Shown here piece after piece: positions 24,425 through 52,682 of a stretch of 64,000 nt of DNA. Position 1 is the stretch's first letter. Each line of letters starts with the position of its first letter. The stretch lies in NCBI GenBank assembly GCA_000165345.1, contig CM000429.1, forward strand, positions 128,001 to 192,000, written 5' to 3'. The notes under the pieces were generated by a model. It was not told the origin of the DNA and searched no databases. It saw only the letters and a program-made list of their open reading frames with translations. The position numbers were made by a program, and so were the translations under genes.

Positions 24425-24580
24425 CCGTGTTTCCCGCCAATATGTGGCGGTTTCTGCATGGCCAATGGATGGCTTTGCGATTTTGAATATTTTGGGCGGG
24501 GCATTGGAGTTAACAAAGTAAAATAAAAAAGGTAAAAAAACTGGGAGGTAAAAAGTTTGCATGTGCATGCGTACATTGGA
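24425..24580. promoter_or_regulatory. Promoter motif cluster upstream of the 1272-aa secreted-protein gene: TTTCCCGCCAATATGTGGCGG, TTTTGGGCGGGG, TGCATGTGCATGCGTACA
   Basis: It lies 500-650 nt upstream of the ATG at 23927 on the reverse strand. E2F-like sites sit at 24430-24438 and 24491-24501. GCATGC-type repeats sit at 24556-24575. Confidence 0.4.
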
Positions 24581-48960: not shown

Positions 48961-49998
48961 TTACATTTCAAACTTTTCATTGGAAATTGAACTAGGATTT
49001 TCTATGGATGAGCTATAAAATTCAAAGTATTTATCAAAATCTCCAGACTCATTTATTTGTTCATTCTTCCGTGCTCTAATTGGAATCTTAGTTAATTCTA
49101 TTTTATATATTCTTGGCCACCTCTTACCAGTAACAAAAAGAACTGGGCCATTTAAGTTGGAAATCTTCTTTTCTTGATAGCTTGGATGATATGCAATTCC
49201 ATTAAGTACATCGTTAAGAATATCAAAGTGTTCTAATAACGTGCTTTTGCTTGGATCATAAATTGATTTCAGATTTGCAATTGATATACATTCACCTGTT
49301 TCAGGACTAAATTCAACAATCATTTGCGATTGGAATATATTTCCCCAAATAGTTTTTGTTTCTGGAATATATTCCATTTCATTTACAAAATGCATGGGCT
49401 TTCCAAGACATCTCAACATTATTACCTTTTTAATTGTGACTTTATTATCTGAAGAATCAAAATCTGGAACATTAAGCTCAAAAAGTTGATCAGAACCAGA
49501 TGTAGCCCATATTCTTGATTCATTATCTGATGTGAGACCCCATCCTGTTAATGGTATTGAATAACGTTTCACTACTGAAAGATCAAGAGAATATCCAAAC
49601 ATTACTCTACTTGTCCAAGTTAACTGGTATATATGGCCATTCAAAGTTGCAATTCCTTCACCCCAGTTCCTCTTTGGTAAAATCTTGTGTTGAAGATTCT
49701 TCATACTTGGGAATTCAATCAGTTTAATAAAACTTCCTTCAATTAATCCTGCACTTTCTATAAGAATTGTCGAATTTAGAAACATTAAACCTTGGGTGAA
49801 TGGATTTTTGTTATATTTATAAGATGAATCATTTTCAGAAAAAATATGATTTTCTGGTATATGGTAGTGGGGGAATTCTTGTAATATTTTCACGCTGTAA
49901 ATATTTGGCAACTGAACTGAATGTAATGAATCCTGGGATAAAGAAAAGTTCCATTTAATTATTAAGCATGAGAATAAGAATAGTCCCAACAAAAACAT
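48961..49998 (-). CDS. Glutaminyl-peptide cyclotransferase (glutamine cyclotransferase), plant/bacterial beta-propeller type, with an N-terminal signal peptide
   Basis: Conserved QC blocks are present: NPFTQGL, ESAGLIEGS (ESTG-like), NWGEGIATLNGHIYQLTWTS (FGEGxT...QLTW), GWGLTSD, and SGSDQLFELNVPDF (SDGS..L..xDP). The ORF-track start at 50040 is a GTG. The first ATG is at 49996-49998, giving MFLLGLFLFSCLIIKW as a signal peptide. Confidence 0.7.
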   Translation of the reverse strand: MFLLGLFLFSCLIIKWNFSLSQDSLHSVQLPNIYSVKILQEFPHYHIPENHIFSENDSSYKYNKNPFTQGLMFLNSTILIESAGLIEGSFIKLIEFPSMKNLQHKILPKRNWGEGIATLNGHIYQLTWTSRVMFGYSLDLSVVKRYSIPLTGWGLTSDNESRIWATSGSDQLFELNVPDFDSSDNKVTIKKVIMLRCLGKPMHFVNEMEYIPETKTIWGNIFQSQMIVEFSPETGECISIANLKSIYDPSKSTLLEHFDILNDVLNGIAYHPSYQEKKISNLNGPVLFVTGKRWPRIYKIELTKIPIRARKNEQINESGDFDKYFEFYSSSIENPSSISNEKFEM

Positions 49999-50362
49999 AA
50001 TATTTTCAATATTAAAGCGTGTTATCTTTTCAATTTTCACCTCAAAAACTCTTCAAAAATTAAATTTTATAATAAAATGGAATATCATTAATTCGCATTA
50101 CGAGGTATTGCCGGGCAATCAAAATTTAAATATATATAACTGTAATTCTGTAATACATGTAAATACGTAAGCGATCAATTAAAAAAAAAAAAAAAAAGAA
50201 GTTAAAGAAAAAGTTAATTTAATAAGAATCTTAAAAAAGTTGATAAATATAATAATTTATAATACTGAAGTCAATTTGTCCAGTTTATTTCTCTTTATAA
50301 TTAATAAAAAAAAATGAGTTAATTTATTTGCCCATGAAGAATATTTAAATTTATTTAACAAC

Positions 50363-50968
50363 TTACTTTGCGAGAACTTGTATTGCAAAAGATATTGAAA
50401 TACAATGTTGGAGATATATTTGGTTTGTTGGATCAATATGATTCACTTTCAAAAAATGAGAGAATATGAGAGAATTATCATTTTCGTTTTCACTTTTGAT
50501 CATTGAATTAATTAATGCATTGATATCCAAAATATTAAGACATAATGTACATACATCCTAAGATCAAAAAAAGAATAACATTCGAGAGTATTAAATGTTA
50601 ATTTAACTCAATATAGCATTGAATTTTAAAACTTACCATTGGTTGCTTCAAAGTAATTTTCTTTGTTTCTGGATAATATTCAAAGTTTTCCCAATAAAAT
50701 AAAGAACTGCATTTGGAATCACATACATCACATTTCTTGAATTCAAACAATTAAAATAAATACCTCAAATTAAATTCTCATAAAAAAAACTTACCTTTTT
50801 CAATGAATCAGAACCAGCTTTTAAAGTACATTTTCCGTTCTTTGAAGTATCTATCTTTCCAATCTTTGGAACTGGTGCAAGCTTACAAGCATAAGCTACT
50901 AACCTTTCTTTTAGCATGGAAATTTGGGACTCAATACTTCCATTTGAATTCTCTAAAATATTTGACAT
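50363..50968 (-). CDS. Small (about 155 aa) CxxC...CxxC zinc-ribbon-like hypothetical protein, three exons: 50795..50968, 50637..50735, 50363..50557; introns 50736..50794 and 50558..50636, both with a GTAAGT donor
   Basis: Exon 1 is the track ORF 50765..50968 truncated at AAG|GTAAGT (donor at 50789-50794 on the reverse strand). Exon 2 reads KCDVCDSKCSSLFYWENFEYYPETKKITLKQPM and ends ATG|GTAAGT. Exon 3 reads DVCTLCLNILD...QVLAK then TAA. All junctions are phase 0 with no internal stops. The gene is not in the ORF track as a whole. Confidence 0.45.
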
Positions 50969-51674
50969 TGGCCTGTTATTTTAAAAGAAGCAGAATTTCA
51001 AAAACACAAACAAAGGACTTCAAATTCAAAGTTTGAGAGAAATTCTATTTTTAAAATATGTATATACTATTTTCTTTTATCTTATTTTTTCTGAATTGAC
51101 TATAAATCTAAATTTGGCTGAAAACATTTTGGCGGGAAAACTACTTACTCCAAAATAGTCAAGTGGGAAAAATTTCATGTAATCTAAAATAGTAAACAAT
51201 AACAAAAGTGTATTCTTTTTATGAATTGAAAGTTTAATATGAAGACTAATAATGAAGCATTTAAAGATTTTGATCTAGTTTAACTTATTAAATAAGTACT
51301 ATTGAATTATATTTATGTAAGACATTGCTAAACTCTCAAGAATCGTGAAATATTAATTAATGAGTATGCTCAAAGGAGAAAACTATAATTGGATATCATA
51401 TTGAAATACAGGTTTTTTTAAAAAAACTTAACTTTATTCAAGAAAGCTGAAATGATAGAATAACATTCCGTTTTTAGTCACTATATATAAACATAAGAGG
51501 AGAATGGCGGTAAAGTAAGGGAAGCAAATAGAATATAGTGTAAAGGGAAATGAACAAAAAAAAAGGCTGTGGCATGCAAATTGATCCAAAGAGCAAAAAT
51601 AATTGAGTCAACTAAATTAAAGAATTTATGTGTTCTAAAGGTGTTTTTACCATTCACGTCGGAACCTGATTAAA

Positions 51675-52682
51675 ATGACAGAAAATTCAGTCAAAATCGA
51701 GTCTCATTCAAAGAAAGAAACAATTTCTCATTTGAATGAATCGGCAAGTACAAGCAATCCCAGAAAGAAAAGCAGAAAAAACACAGGAAAGGACAACAAG
51801 GTTGATAATTTTGATTCTCCCGTATTCTCAGTTAGGTATAAGGATCCATCAATAGAGTTATCAGATGATAGATTAACAGCTGTGGGGTATAAAGGTTGGT
51901 CAACAGTTTTGTTAACACACGGTGCAAGTTCTGGAGTTTGGTATTTTGAAATTACAGTTTTAGAACCACGGGTTATTTCCAAGTTTTTAGGTCATTCTAA
52001 GTTTTTAAATTTGAAACAAGACCCCAGTATAAGGTAAATTTAATAAAATTATTAATTATATTTTCCTTCATTTTTAACTAACTTTACAATTAGGGTTGGA
52101 TGGAGTTGTAGATATAATAGATTGGATACTCCAGTTGGCACATCAACCTTTGGATATTCCTTCAATACAAAAACTTACTCCATTTTTTCCAATGCTAAAG
52201 CTCAAGAAATTCATGAATCGGAAAAAATTACTCAAATTAACCCTGGTGATGTGATTGGATGCTTAATCAAACTTAGTGGTGTACCTTATGAACTAGAGGA
52301 TCCCAGAAATTGTCCCCATTTGCATCCATATTTAGAGCTTGGACTTTTATGTAATCCAGAAGTACTCCCTAAAGTTATAAACGATCCTAGTAAGTTTTTC
52401 AATTACTTTGATTGCTATTCAACTTCTATTAAATTCCTTCAAATCTTTTTCATTTATTATTATTATTATTTTTAACATTATTCAGATTCCCTAATTGAGT
52501 TTTATATTAATGGGAAGAAGTTGAGTGCTAACTTTACAAATATTCCTTCAGGATTTTATCATCCTACTGTTTCATTATATATGGGATCCTCCGTAAAGAT
52601 CAACATAGGACCAAACTTTGCGTTCTTTCCTCACACTGAGTTGGAACCTGCTTTAAAGCTACTAAGACCTCAAATACCTTAG
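51675..52682 (+). CDS. ASH2/Bre2-like SPRY-domain protein (Set1/COMPASS subunit-like), about 283 aa, three exons: 51675..52033, 52094..52389, 52486..52682; introns 52034..52093 (GTAAAT...AATTAG) and 52390..52485 (GTAAGT...TATTCAG)
   Basis: SPRY/ASH2 blocks are present: LSDDRLTAVGYKGWSTVLLTHGASSGVWYFEITV (~[34 protein letters not shown]), a RVGWS...GTSTFGYSF block spanning the intron 1 junction, and GFYHPTVSLYMGSSVKINIGPNFAF (~[21 protein letters not shown]). The two track ORFs (51675..52037 and 52122..52475, the latter with a TTG pseudo-start) are fragments that read through donors. Confidence 0.75.

What the first reader, a model, noticed from the sequence alone, without database searches (positions are those of the whole stretch)
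50363..50968. Unannotated three-exon gene encoding a small CxxC-x(about 36)-CxxC protein
Two GTAAGT donors on the reverse strand (50789-50794 and 50631-50636) and matching AG acceptors join three phase-0 exons into a stop-free 155-aa ORF. It has paired CxxC motifs (KCDVCDSKC ... DVCTLC) typical of zinc ribbons. It shares a roughly 700-nt bidirectional promoter region, with a TTTTGGCGGGAAAA site at 51127-51140, with the ASH2-like gene. Only the first exon appears in the ORF track.
Basis: inference. Interest (0 to 1): 0.5.

Follow-up and report, generated by a model that had tools for sequence, protein, structure and literature searches.

The report
Small zinc-binding gene, already annotated

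Summary
The window is Cryptosporidium parvum chromosome 1. The gene is real. Exons are more conserved than introns, substitutions favour third codon positions, dN/dS is 0.04-0.19, and synteny holds in the six Cryptosporidium loci examined. Exon 2 is intact even in C. andersoni, where annotators skipped it.

Three corrections apply.
- It is not unannotated. The 155-aa protein is QOY43555.1 (CPATCC_0038640).
It splices to a 22-nt fourth exon, giving 161 aa (…AKEINWTN), which is WRK30465.1 (cpbgf_100733). This [ED][IL]xW tail recurs across Cryptosporidium and in most Babesia homologues, so the four-exon model is preferred.
- The cysteine spacing is CxxC-x30-CxxC, not about 36.

The four cysteines are invariant from Cryptosporidium to Babesia, so one structural zinc site is likely. 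No Pfam, PDB sequence or fold match identifies a known family.

Some annotations fuse this gene to the downstream glutamine cyclotransferase (515-517 aa). Their acceptor is absent in C. andersoni and C. ryanae, so the fusion is not conserved. The E2F-like promoter site is conserved.

This is an ordinary, already catalogued gene of unknown function.

The parts
50795..50968 (-). Exon 1 coding sequence. ATG at 50968-50966, 58 codons. It encodes the N-terminal helix and the invariant L-x-P-x-P motif.
   Evidence: It is 87.5-89% identical to C. ubiquitum and chipmunk genotype I. L30, P32 and P34 are invariant from Cryptosporidium to Babesia.
50736..50794 (-). Intron 1, 59 nt, GTAAGT...AG, phase 0.
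   Evidence: It contains an in-frame stop if retained, has 18.6% GC, and is 76-77% identical between species with gaps that are not multiples of three.
50637..50735 (-). Exon 2, 99 nt, 33 codons. It holds the first CxxC (C60, C63) and a beta-rich segment.
   Evidence: A 99-nt phase-0 counterpart is intact in C. andersoni (L004:3277-3375) although that species' annotation skips it.
50558..50636 (-). Intron 2, 79 nt, GTAAGT...polypyrimidine...TAG, phase 0.
   Evidence: It is 51-75% identical between species.
50367..50557 (-). Exon 3, 191 nt in the four-exon model. It holds the second CxxC (C94, C97), the HFLxVN motif and the C-terminal helices. If intron 3 is retained, the TAA at 50365-50363 ends a 155-aa product.
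   Evidence: C94, C97, H125, F126 and N130 are invariant.
50293..50366 (-). Intron 3, 74 nt, phase 2. The acceptor AG is at 50294-50293.
   Evidence: The donor is present in all six species examined. It is used in the GenBank models WRK30465.1, CUV04015.1, TRY53216.1 and P0001.
50271..50292 (-). Exon 4 coding part, 22 nt. It completes the Lys codon, encodes EINWTN and ends at TGA (50273-50271).
   Evidence: One search gives the 161-aa translation, which equals WRK30465.1. Homologous tails are EIKWTN (chipmunk), EINWTY (C. ubiquitum), DLKWIIKNN (C. ryanae), EINWDI... (C. andersoni), EIPWEFVTG and EIEWACVDG (Babesia) and DVDW... (Logan P0023).
51127..51140 (+). E2F-like site TTTTGGCGGGAAAA, about 160 nt upstream of the ATG, in the intergenic region shared with the ASH2-like gene.
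   Evidence: The core TTTCCCGCC is invariant in four species. TTGGCGGGAA with up to one mismatch occurs 10 times in the window against 1.15 expected. It sits at the same position in L002 and L003. E2F is the dominant motif of open chromatin in C. parvum (10.1101/2025.01.17.633476).
51094..51122 (-). Conserved block TTCAGCCAAATTTAGATTTATAGTCAATT, which is CCAAT-like, just downstream of the E2F-like site. It is a probable core-promoter or 5'UTR element.
   Evidence: It is nearly invariant in the four-species alignment, columns about 570-600. Its function is inferred only.
50051..50052 (-). Alternative AG acceptor used by the 515-517-aa fusion models with glutamine cyclotransferase. The resulting intron, 50366-50051, is 316 nt.
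   Evidence: A homologous phase-compatible acceptor exists only in the C. parvum and C. hominis-like loci examined, and there is none in C. andersoni or C. ryanae.

Best explanation
This is a real four-exon protein-coding gene of Cryptosporidium parvum chromosome 1. It lies between the glutamine cyclotransferase gene (cpbgf_100730) and cgd1_740 (ASH2-like), and is catalogued as cpbgf_100733 / CPATCC_0038640. Three short GTAAGT introns of 59, 79 and 74 nt are removed to give a 161-aa soluble protein.

The predicted layout is an N-terminal helix followed by an invariant L-x-P-x-P. Next comes a small beta-rich module in which C60, C63, C94 and C97 (CxxC-x30-CxxC) most likely bind one structural zinc ion. 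A C-terminal helical bundle follows, carrying an invariant HFLxVN motif and ending in a conserved [ED][IL]xW tail encoded by exon 4.

Shown here: the gene structure, purifying selection, the conserved cysteines and motifs, and homologues in Cryptosporidium and Babesia. Inferred: zinc binding (about 0.75), and a role as a non-enzymatic zinc-stabilised adaptor that binds a protein or nucleic-acid partner in the cytosol or nucleus (about 0.5). The protein has no signal peptide, no catalytic motif and no organelle-linked distribution. Transcription probably starts from an E2F-site promoter shared divergently with the ASH2-like gene.
For: - Exact identity to the GenBank proteins QOY43555.1 (155 aa) and WRK30465.1 (161 aa) of C. 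parvum.
- Orthologues of 151-161 aa sit in conserved synteny (dynein heavy chain, SPRY, this gene, glutamine cyclotransferase) in chipmunk genotype I, C. ubiquitum, a C. hominis-like assembly, C. andersoni and C. ryanae.
- Exons are more conserved than introns, and substitutions favour third codon positions. dN/dS is 0.04-0.19.
- Exon 2 is intact and exactly 99 nt in C. andersoni.
- The exon 4 tail is conserved in all Cryptosporidium loci examined and matches the C-termini of unspliced or differently structured homologues in Babesia and a Logan contig.
- An exhaustive HMM search of 1.84 billion representatives found only Cryptosporidium, Babesia and one unnamed relative. The four cysteines, LxPxP and HFLxVN are invariant among them.
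- An AlphaFold2 model built from a 10-sequence alignment has mean pLDDT 69.7, and 82-88 across residues 61-100.
- Intron lengths and the GTAAGT donors fit C. parvum norms: 84% of introns start with GTAAGT and the median length is 61 nt (PMC2483917).
- The CpBGF annotation that carries the 161-aa model was manually curated with Iso-seq data (PMC12179316).
- The E2F-like site is conserved.
Against: - I could examine no transcript or peptide data directly. Junction use, especially 50366/50293, rests on comparative evidence and on other groups' curated models.
- The curated IOWA-ATCC annotation stops at the TAA (155 aa), so intron 3 retention may be frequent.
- Zinc binding is inferred only from the invariant cysteines.
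- The structural model is of moderate confidence, and its coordinates could not be inspected for cysteine geometry.
- No family, fold or literature evidence bears on function.
- The B. duncani homologue has LKF in place of the EIxW motif.
Confidence: 0.8

Rival explanations
1. The main product is the reader's three-exon, 155-aa protein. Intron 3 is normally retained or does not exist, translation stops at TAA 50365-50363, and the downstream 'exon 4' is only conserved 3'UTR.
For: The curated IOWA-ATCC model QOY43555.1, C. hominis PPS97203.1 and C. ubiquitum cubi_00070 all stop there. The sequence around exon 4 is also conserved beyond its stop codon between C. parvum and chipmunk genotype I.
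Against: The spliced tail keeps frame, length class and the [ED][IL]xW motif in five Cryptosporidium lineages, despite nucleotide changes and different stop codons (TGA, TAA). The same motif ends the Babesia gibsoni and Babesia ovata proteins and is followed by a longer tail in the Logan protein P0023. The GTAAGT or GTAAGC donor is conserved in all species examined. The more recent Iso-seq-curated CpBGF model uses it.
Confidence: 0.13
2. The exons are the 5' part of the glutamine cyclotransferase gene. The donor at 50366 splices to the acceptor at 50051, giving a 517-aa type II membrane protein. It would have a cytosolic zinc domain, the cyclotransferase 'signal peptide' as an internal anchor, and a lumenal cyclase domain.
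For: Models of 515-517 aa exist for C. parvum (KAL5370311.1), C. hominis (OLQ18613.1, KAL3129773.1), C. meleagridis (POM81975.1) and Cryptosporidium sp. 43IA8. A phase-compatible acceptor exists in C. parvum. Polycistronic and read-through transcripts are reported in C. parvum. The gene pair is syntenic across the genus.
Against: - There is no phase-compatible acceptor in C. andersoni or C. ryanae, and none at the homologous position in C. ubiquitum or chipmunk genotype I.
- The fusion would discard the conserved exon 4 tail.
- The intron would be 316 nt against a median of 61 nt.
- Babesia and Logan homologues are stand-alone proteins and are not next to a cyclotransferase gene.
- A positionally conserved palindrome, ATTGCCCGGCAAT, lies 120 nt upstream of the cyclotransferase ATG. 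This suggests that gene has its own promoter.
- The authors who kept the long model for C. meleagridis say they had no RNA evidence, and they note that CpBGF splits it into two genes (PMC11655656).
Confidence: 0.05
3. This is a chance arrangement of ORF fragments and GTAAGT hexamers, or a decaying pseudogene.
For: The genome is AT-rich, and 23 GTAAGT hexamers are expected by chance in the window. There is no match to any known protein family.
Against: dN/dS is 0.04-0.19, exons are more conserved than introns, and exon gaps are multiples of three. Homologues with E-values from 1e-5 to 1e-91 occur in other Cryptosporidium species and in Babesia.
Confidence: 0.01

Closest known systems
cpbgf_100733 (WRK30465.1) / CPATCC_0038640 (QOY43555.1), hypothetical proteins of C. 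parvum, and their Cryptosporidium orthologues (CUV04015.1, TRY53216.1, cubi_00070, ELE39_000671, FG386_000397, cand_031380, CMU_035440)
   Same: The window's 161-aa and 155-aa products are identical to these two C. parvum entries, residue for residue. The orthologues share the same syntenic position.
   Different: Nothing differs in sequence. The public models disagree about the 3' end (155 aa, 161 aa or a 517-aa fusion). The gastric-species models omit exon 2.
Babesia conserved hypothetical proteins BOVATA_024260 (B. ovata), BgAZ_207870 (B. gibsoni) and the N-terminal 170 residues of BdWA1_003030 (B. duncani)
   Same: The order of elements is the same: helix, LxPxP, CxxC-x(about 30)-CxxC, HFLxVN, then the EIxW tail. 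Identity is 26-28%, and HMM E-values are 5e-5 to 8e-4 from a Cryptosporidium-only profile.
   Different: Their N-termini are longer. They are not next to a glutamine cyclotransferase gene. The B. duncani model is fused to the product of the next gene. They are also uncharacterised.
Generic Cys4 zinc ribbon / treble-clef small zinc fingers (FYVE-type of CARP2, PARP-type, C1, ribosomal eL24/eS26, TFIIH p44)
CZIB / DUF866 (PF05907), eukaryotic CXXC-motif zinc-binding protein of about 160 aa
   Same: Size is similar, and the CxxC-x30-CxxC spacing is similar (spacing recalled from memory).
   Different: There is no hmmscan hit even at E of 10 or less. DUF866 is all-beta (recalled from memory), whereas this protein is predicted to be about half helical.

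Membership tests
Orthologue group cpbgf_100733 / CPATCC_0038640 | Identical or near-identical sequence in the same species | tested here: met
   An exact-sequence look-up finds both the 155-aa and the 161-aa products as C. parvum GenBank entries.
Orthologue group cpbgf_100733 / CPATCC_0038640 | Conserved position between the SPRY/ASH2-like gene and the glutamine cyclotransferase gene | tested here: met
   The gene order is the same in L001-L005. cgd1_740 is the ASH-like gene.
Cys4 zinc ribbon (structural class) | Four zinc ligands in two CxxC knuckles, conserved across the family | tested here: met
   C60, C63, C94 and C97 are invariant in nine sequences from Cryptosporidium, Babesia and a Logan contig. 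The other cysteines vary.
Cys4 zinc ribbon (structural class) | Each knuckle sits at a beta-hairpin turn, forming a three-stranded sheet | tested here: inconclusive
   The AlphaFold2 model has strands at 69-73, 76-79, 84-87 and 91-93 between the knuckles, with pLDDT 82-88. The second CxxC leads into a helix, which is more treble-clef-like.
Cys4 zinc ribbon (structural class) | Binds one zinc ion | not testable with these tools
   This needs metal analysis of recombinant protein.
Any curated Pfam zinc-ribbon or zinc-finger family (including Zn_ribbon_5, zf-FCS, DUF866, zf-PARP, FYVE) | Score above the family's gathering threshold | tested here: not met
   The C. parvum protein matches no family at E of 10 or less. 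Among nine homologues there are only scattered single-member hits, and no family is shared by more than one.
Solved-structure relatives | Significant sequence or fold match to a PDB chain | tested here: not met
Glutamine cyclotransferase family protein (fused 515-517-aa models) | A conserved splice joining these exons in frame to the cyclotransferase ORF | tested here: not met
   Among the loci examined, a homologous phase-compatible acceptor exists only in the C. parvum and C. hominis-like loci. There is none in C. andersoni or C. ryanae.

The most novel reading that the evidence does not exclude
The protein may found a previously undescribed zinc-binding domain family, so far seen only in Cryptosporidium, piroplasms and one unnamed relative. 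Its fold would be unrelated to catalogued zinc fingers, and it would serve as a small subunit of a conserved parasite-specific complex. In the C. parvum / C. hominis / C. meleagridis clade, alternative use of the donor at 50366 might also occasionally graft it onto the membrane-anchored glutamine cyclotransferase.
Probability: 0.15. Interest if true: 0.4.

Novelty: already known. Interest (0 to 1): 0.2.

Why it matters
The value is mainly annotation quality. I infer this from its identifier cpbgf_100733, which falls between 100730 and 100740. Later curated annotations added it.

The comparative analysis here settles a real disagreement among public models (155 aa, 161 aa or a 517-aa fusion) in favour of the 161-aa four-exon form. 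It also shows that the C. muris, C. andersoni and C. serpentis models lack an intact exon that carries half of the zinc site. It defines a small family with invariant Cys4, LxPxP, HFLxVN and EIxW motifs, shared by Cryptosporidium and Babesia and absent from Pfam.

Nothing here changes current understanding of parasite biology unless a function is found.

Tried and rejected
- Pfam hmmscan of the protein and of nine homologues found no consistent family.
- PDB sequence searches with two profiles found nothing.
- The first AlphaFold2 run, on a 3-sequence alignment, was too poor to use at pLDDT 55.9. The second, on 10 sequences, reached pLDDT 69.7 and was used.
- A second word-indexed homologue search with the broad alignment added no new lineages.
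- Literature searches by locus tag found only one mention, the table of split versus fused genes. No functional study turned up (the latter was noise). Supplements of the polycistron paper are not held.
- I considered and rejected SSSCA1/p27, Mis18/Yippee, DUF866/CZIB, Rpr2, Trm112 and Yju2 as identities. These came from memory, and their cysteine spacing or secondary structure does not fit. For those with Pfam models, nothing matched.
- A fourth GTAAGT at 51148-51143, next to the E2F-like site, is not conserved (TTAAGC and GTAAGC in other species). I rejected it as a 5'UTR intron donor.

Full report
**Source and observation**

The window is 30% GC. The ORF just downstream of the finding is identical over 345 aa to the glutamine cyclotransferase of Cryptosporidium parvum Iowa II (EAK88499.1 / XP_627923.1). 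The window is therefore C. parvum chromosome 1.

- Exon 1 is 50968-50795 (174 nt), with GTAAGT at 50794-50789.
- Exon 2 is 50735-50637 (99 nt), with GTAAGT at 50636-50631.
- Exon 3 is 50557-50363 (195 nt including TAA).
- All junctions are phase 0 and both acceptors are AG. The introns are 59 and 79 nt, and the product is 155 aa.

TTTTGGCGGGAAAA is at 51127-51140. The start codon of the divergent SPRY/ASH2-like gene is at 51675, 706 nt away. That neighbour is cgd1_740, described as ASH-like in PMC9487757.

One detail is off. The cysteines are C60, C63, C94 and C97, so the spacing is CxxC-x30-CxxC rather than about 36.

**The gene is real**

A word-indexed search found full-length orthologues in Cryptosporidium sp. 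chipmunk genotype I (86% identity) and C. ubiquitum (80%). Their loci, together with those of a C. hominis-like assembly, C. andersoni and C. ryanae, show the same gene order: dynein heavy chain, SPRY gene, this gene, glutamine cyclotransferase.

In nucleotide alignments the exons are 87-91% identical to chipmunk genotype I and C. ubiquitum, while the introns are 51-78% identical. Exon gaps are multiples of three and intron gaps are not. Substitutions by codon position are 11/9/30 and 14/12/35. Nei-Gojobori dN/dS is 0.04, 0.18 and 0.19.

GTAAGT starts 84% of C. parvum introns, and the median intron length is 61 nt (PMC2483917). The introns here fit both figures.

It does not refute the gene. 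In C. andersoni, where the annotated protein skips exon 2, the DNA holds an intact 99-nt, phase-0 exon encoding CCSRCNKNFDSFYLWPELDIDPFNKQITIVNVQ, flanked by AG and GTAGGT.

**The 3' end needs correcting**

Splicing from there to the AG at 50294-50293 removes a 74-nt intron. It adds 22 nt (50292-50271), which complete a Lys codon and encode EINWTN before a TGA stop.

The homologous tail in other species is:
- EIKWTN in chipmunk genotype I.
- EINWTY (TAA stop) in C. ubiquitum.
- DLKWIIKNN in C. ryanae.
- EINWDI... in C. andersoni.

The distant homologues end in ...AEIPWEFVTG (Babesia gibsoni) and ...SEIEWACVDG (B. ovata), and the Logan protein P0023 carries ...RDVDWSV... before a longer tail. 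A motif kept at the protein level from Cryptosporidium to Babesia, in genes with different structures, cannot be mere 3'UTR conservation. The four-exon, 161-aa product is therefore preferred.

**The gene is already annotated**

An exact-sequence look-up shows the following:
- The 155-aa protein is QOY43555.1 (CPATCC_0038640, C. parvum IOWA-ATCC).
- The 161-aa protein is WRK30465.1 (cpbgf_100733, C. parvum BGF).
- C. hominis has 161-aa and 155-aa entries, and C. tyzzeri has a 161-aa entry.

The CpBGF annotation was manually curated with Iso-seq data, and it keeps the legacy gene numbers (PMC12179316). The number 100733, between 100730 and 100740, implies that the gene was added after the original annotation. 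That last point is my inference.

**Fusion models with glutamine cyclotransferase**

Several records fuse these exons to the downstream glutamine cyclotransferase, giving 515-517 aa in C. parvum, C. hominis, C. meleagridis and Cryptosporidium sp. 43IA8. The fusion joins the donor at 50366 to an acceptor at 50051, which makes a 316-nt intron.

PMC11655656 lists exactly this case: cmbei_100730 corresponds to cpbgf_100730 plus cpbgf_100733. Its authors state that no RNA evidence was available for the long C. meleagridis model.

I looked for a phase-compatible acceptor in the open frame upstream of the cyclotransferase ATG. One exists at the homologous position only in the C. parvum and C. hominis-like loci. 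C. andersoni and C. ryanae have none.

Four further points argue against the fusion:
- It would drop the conserved exon 4 tail.
- The Babesia and Logan homologues are stand-alone genes and are not next to a cyclotransferase gene.
- The cyclotransferase begins with a signal-peptide-like segment of its own.
- A palindrome, ATTGCCCGGCAAT, sits 120 nt upstream of the cyclotransferase ATG at the same distance in four species. This points to a separate promoter.

The fusion is most likely an annotation artefact or, at most, a minor clade-specific isoform.

**What the protein is**

Pfam gives no hit at E of 10 or less, either for the protein or consistently for nine homologues. PDB sequence profiles find nothing.

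An exhaustive HMMER search of 1.84 billion representatives, using a Cryptosporidium profile, returned only a few sequences. These were other Cryptosporidium species, Babesia ovata, B. gibsoni and B. duncani, one unnamed Logan contig, and one C2H2 zinc-finger protein that I read as a false positive.

In the nine-sequence alignment the invariant positions are L30, P32, P34, C60, C63, C94, C97, H125, F126 and N130. The other cysteines vary.

AlphaFold2 with a 10-sequence alignment gives mean pLDDT 69.7 and pTM 0.67. The model has a helix at 12-26, short strands between residues 47 and 93, and helices at 95-154. pLDDT is 82-88 across residues 61-100.

Fold searches are uninformative:
- Foldseek against PDB finds nothing at E of 0.001 or less.
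- BFVD has nothing significant.

The defensible reading is a small soluble protein with one structural Cys4 zinc site of generic zinc-ribbon or treble-clef character, flanked by helices. It belongs to a lineage-restricted family without a described function. It occurs both in Cryptosporidium, which lacks an apicoplast and a mitochondrial genome (from general knowledge), and in Babesia. With no signal peptide either, this argues for a cytosolic or nuclear adaptor role. That role is inference.

**Promoter**

The E2F-like core TTTCCCGCC is invariant in four species at about 155-160 nt upstream of the ATG. TTGGCGGGAA with up to one mismatch occurs 10 times in the window against 1.15 expected.

E2F motifs dominate open chromatin, and more than half of regulatory peaks are bidirectional in C. 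parvum sporozoites (10.1101/2025.01.17.633476). The site is therefore plausible as a shared promoter element. It says little about function, because it is the commonest promoter motif in this genome.

**Verdict**

It is wrong on 'unannotated', incomplete on exon count, and unproven on 'typical zinc ribbon'. Novelty: already known as a hypothetical protein. The useful residue is a set of annotation corrections and a motif definition for an uncharacterised family shared by Cryptosporidium and Babesia.

Noticed in passing
L004:3277-3375 (C. andersoni); proteins P0021, P0028, P0029: The annotated orthologues in the gastric species C. andersoni (cand_031380), C. muris (CMU_035440) and C. serpentis (ACR3K2_18010) all lack the exon 2 segment that carries the first CxxC. 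In C. andersoni DNA the 99-nt phase-0 exon is intact, so these public models are probably wrong.
   Followed up: partly
P0020 (C. canis KAJ1605811.1): The C. canis model follows exons 1-2 and then reads into intron 2 (…KKPLCTSSSVSRF…). It is named 'glutamine cyclotransferase', apparently by transfer from fused models.
   Followed up: no
window 50107-50119 (palindrome ATTGCCCGGCAAT): A palindromic element lies 120 nt upstream of the glutamine cyclotransferase ATG. It sits at the same distance in chipmunk genotype I, C. ubiquitum and the C. hominis-like locus, and C. ryanae has a near variant. It is probably a promoter element for the cyclotransferase gene. It is unique in the window.
   Followed up: partly
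window 49999-50052 (-), upstream of the cyclotransferase ATG at 49998: The 17-18 codons in frame upstream of the cyclotransferase ATG are open and similar at the amino-acid level in four species: VFEVKIEKITRFNIENI, VLELKVEKITRFNIENI, FEVKVEKIRHINFVNI and FKVKIVKIKRFNFENI. They include a GTG at 50040. This could be a conserved 5'UTR or a non-ATG N-terminal extension.
   Followed up: no
window 51569-51586: An invariant block TCAATTTGCATGCCACA, with a GCATGC core that is ApiAP2-like (from memory), lies about 90-105 nt upstream of the ASH2-like gene's ATG. A second conserved CCGCCAT element lies nearby.
   Followed up: no
L007:5001-7170 (B. ovata); P0024 (B. duncani BdWA1_003030, 556 aa): The B. 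duncani protein matches both the B. ovata small homologue (residues 21-169) and the next gene downstream (residues 235-549). It is either a fused annotation or a real fusion. The downstream 474-aa gene has no Pfam domain.
   Followed up: partly
window-wide, e.g. 19782-19791, 24431-24440, 51129-51138: The E2F-like decamer TTGGCGGGAA with up to one mismatch occurs 10 times in 64 kb against 1.15 expected from shuffles.
   Followed up: partly
window 51143-51148 (-): A fourth GTAAGT on the gene's strand lies directly upstream of the E2F-like site. It is not conserved in chipmunk genotype I or C. ubiquitum, so it is probably chance.
   Followed up: yes
L006 (Logan SRR22729506 contig, 9.8 kb): An intronless 197-aa homologue (P0023) lies on a gene-dense contig from an unidentified organism, next to DSBA-like and aldose-epimerase genes. 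The source organism was not determined.
   Followed up: no
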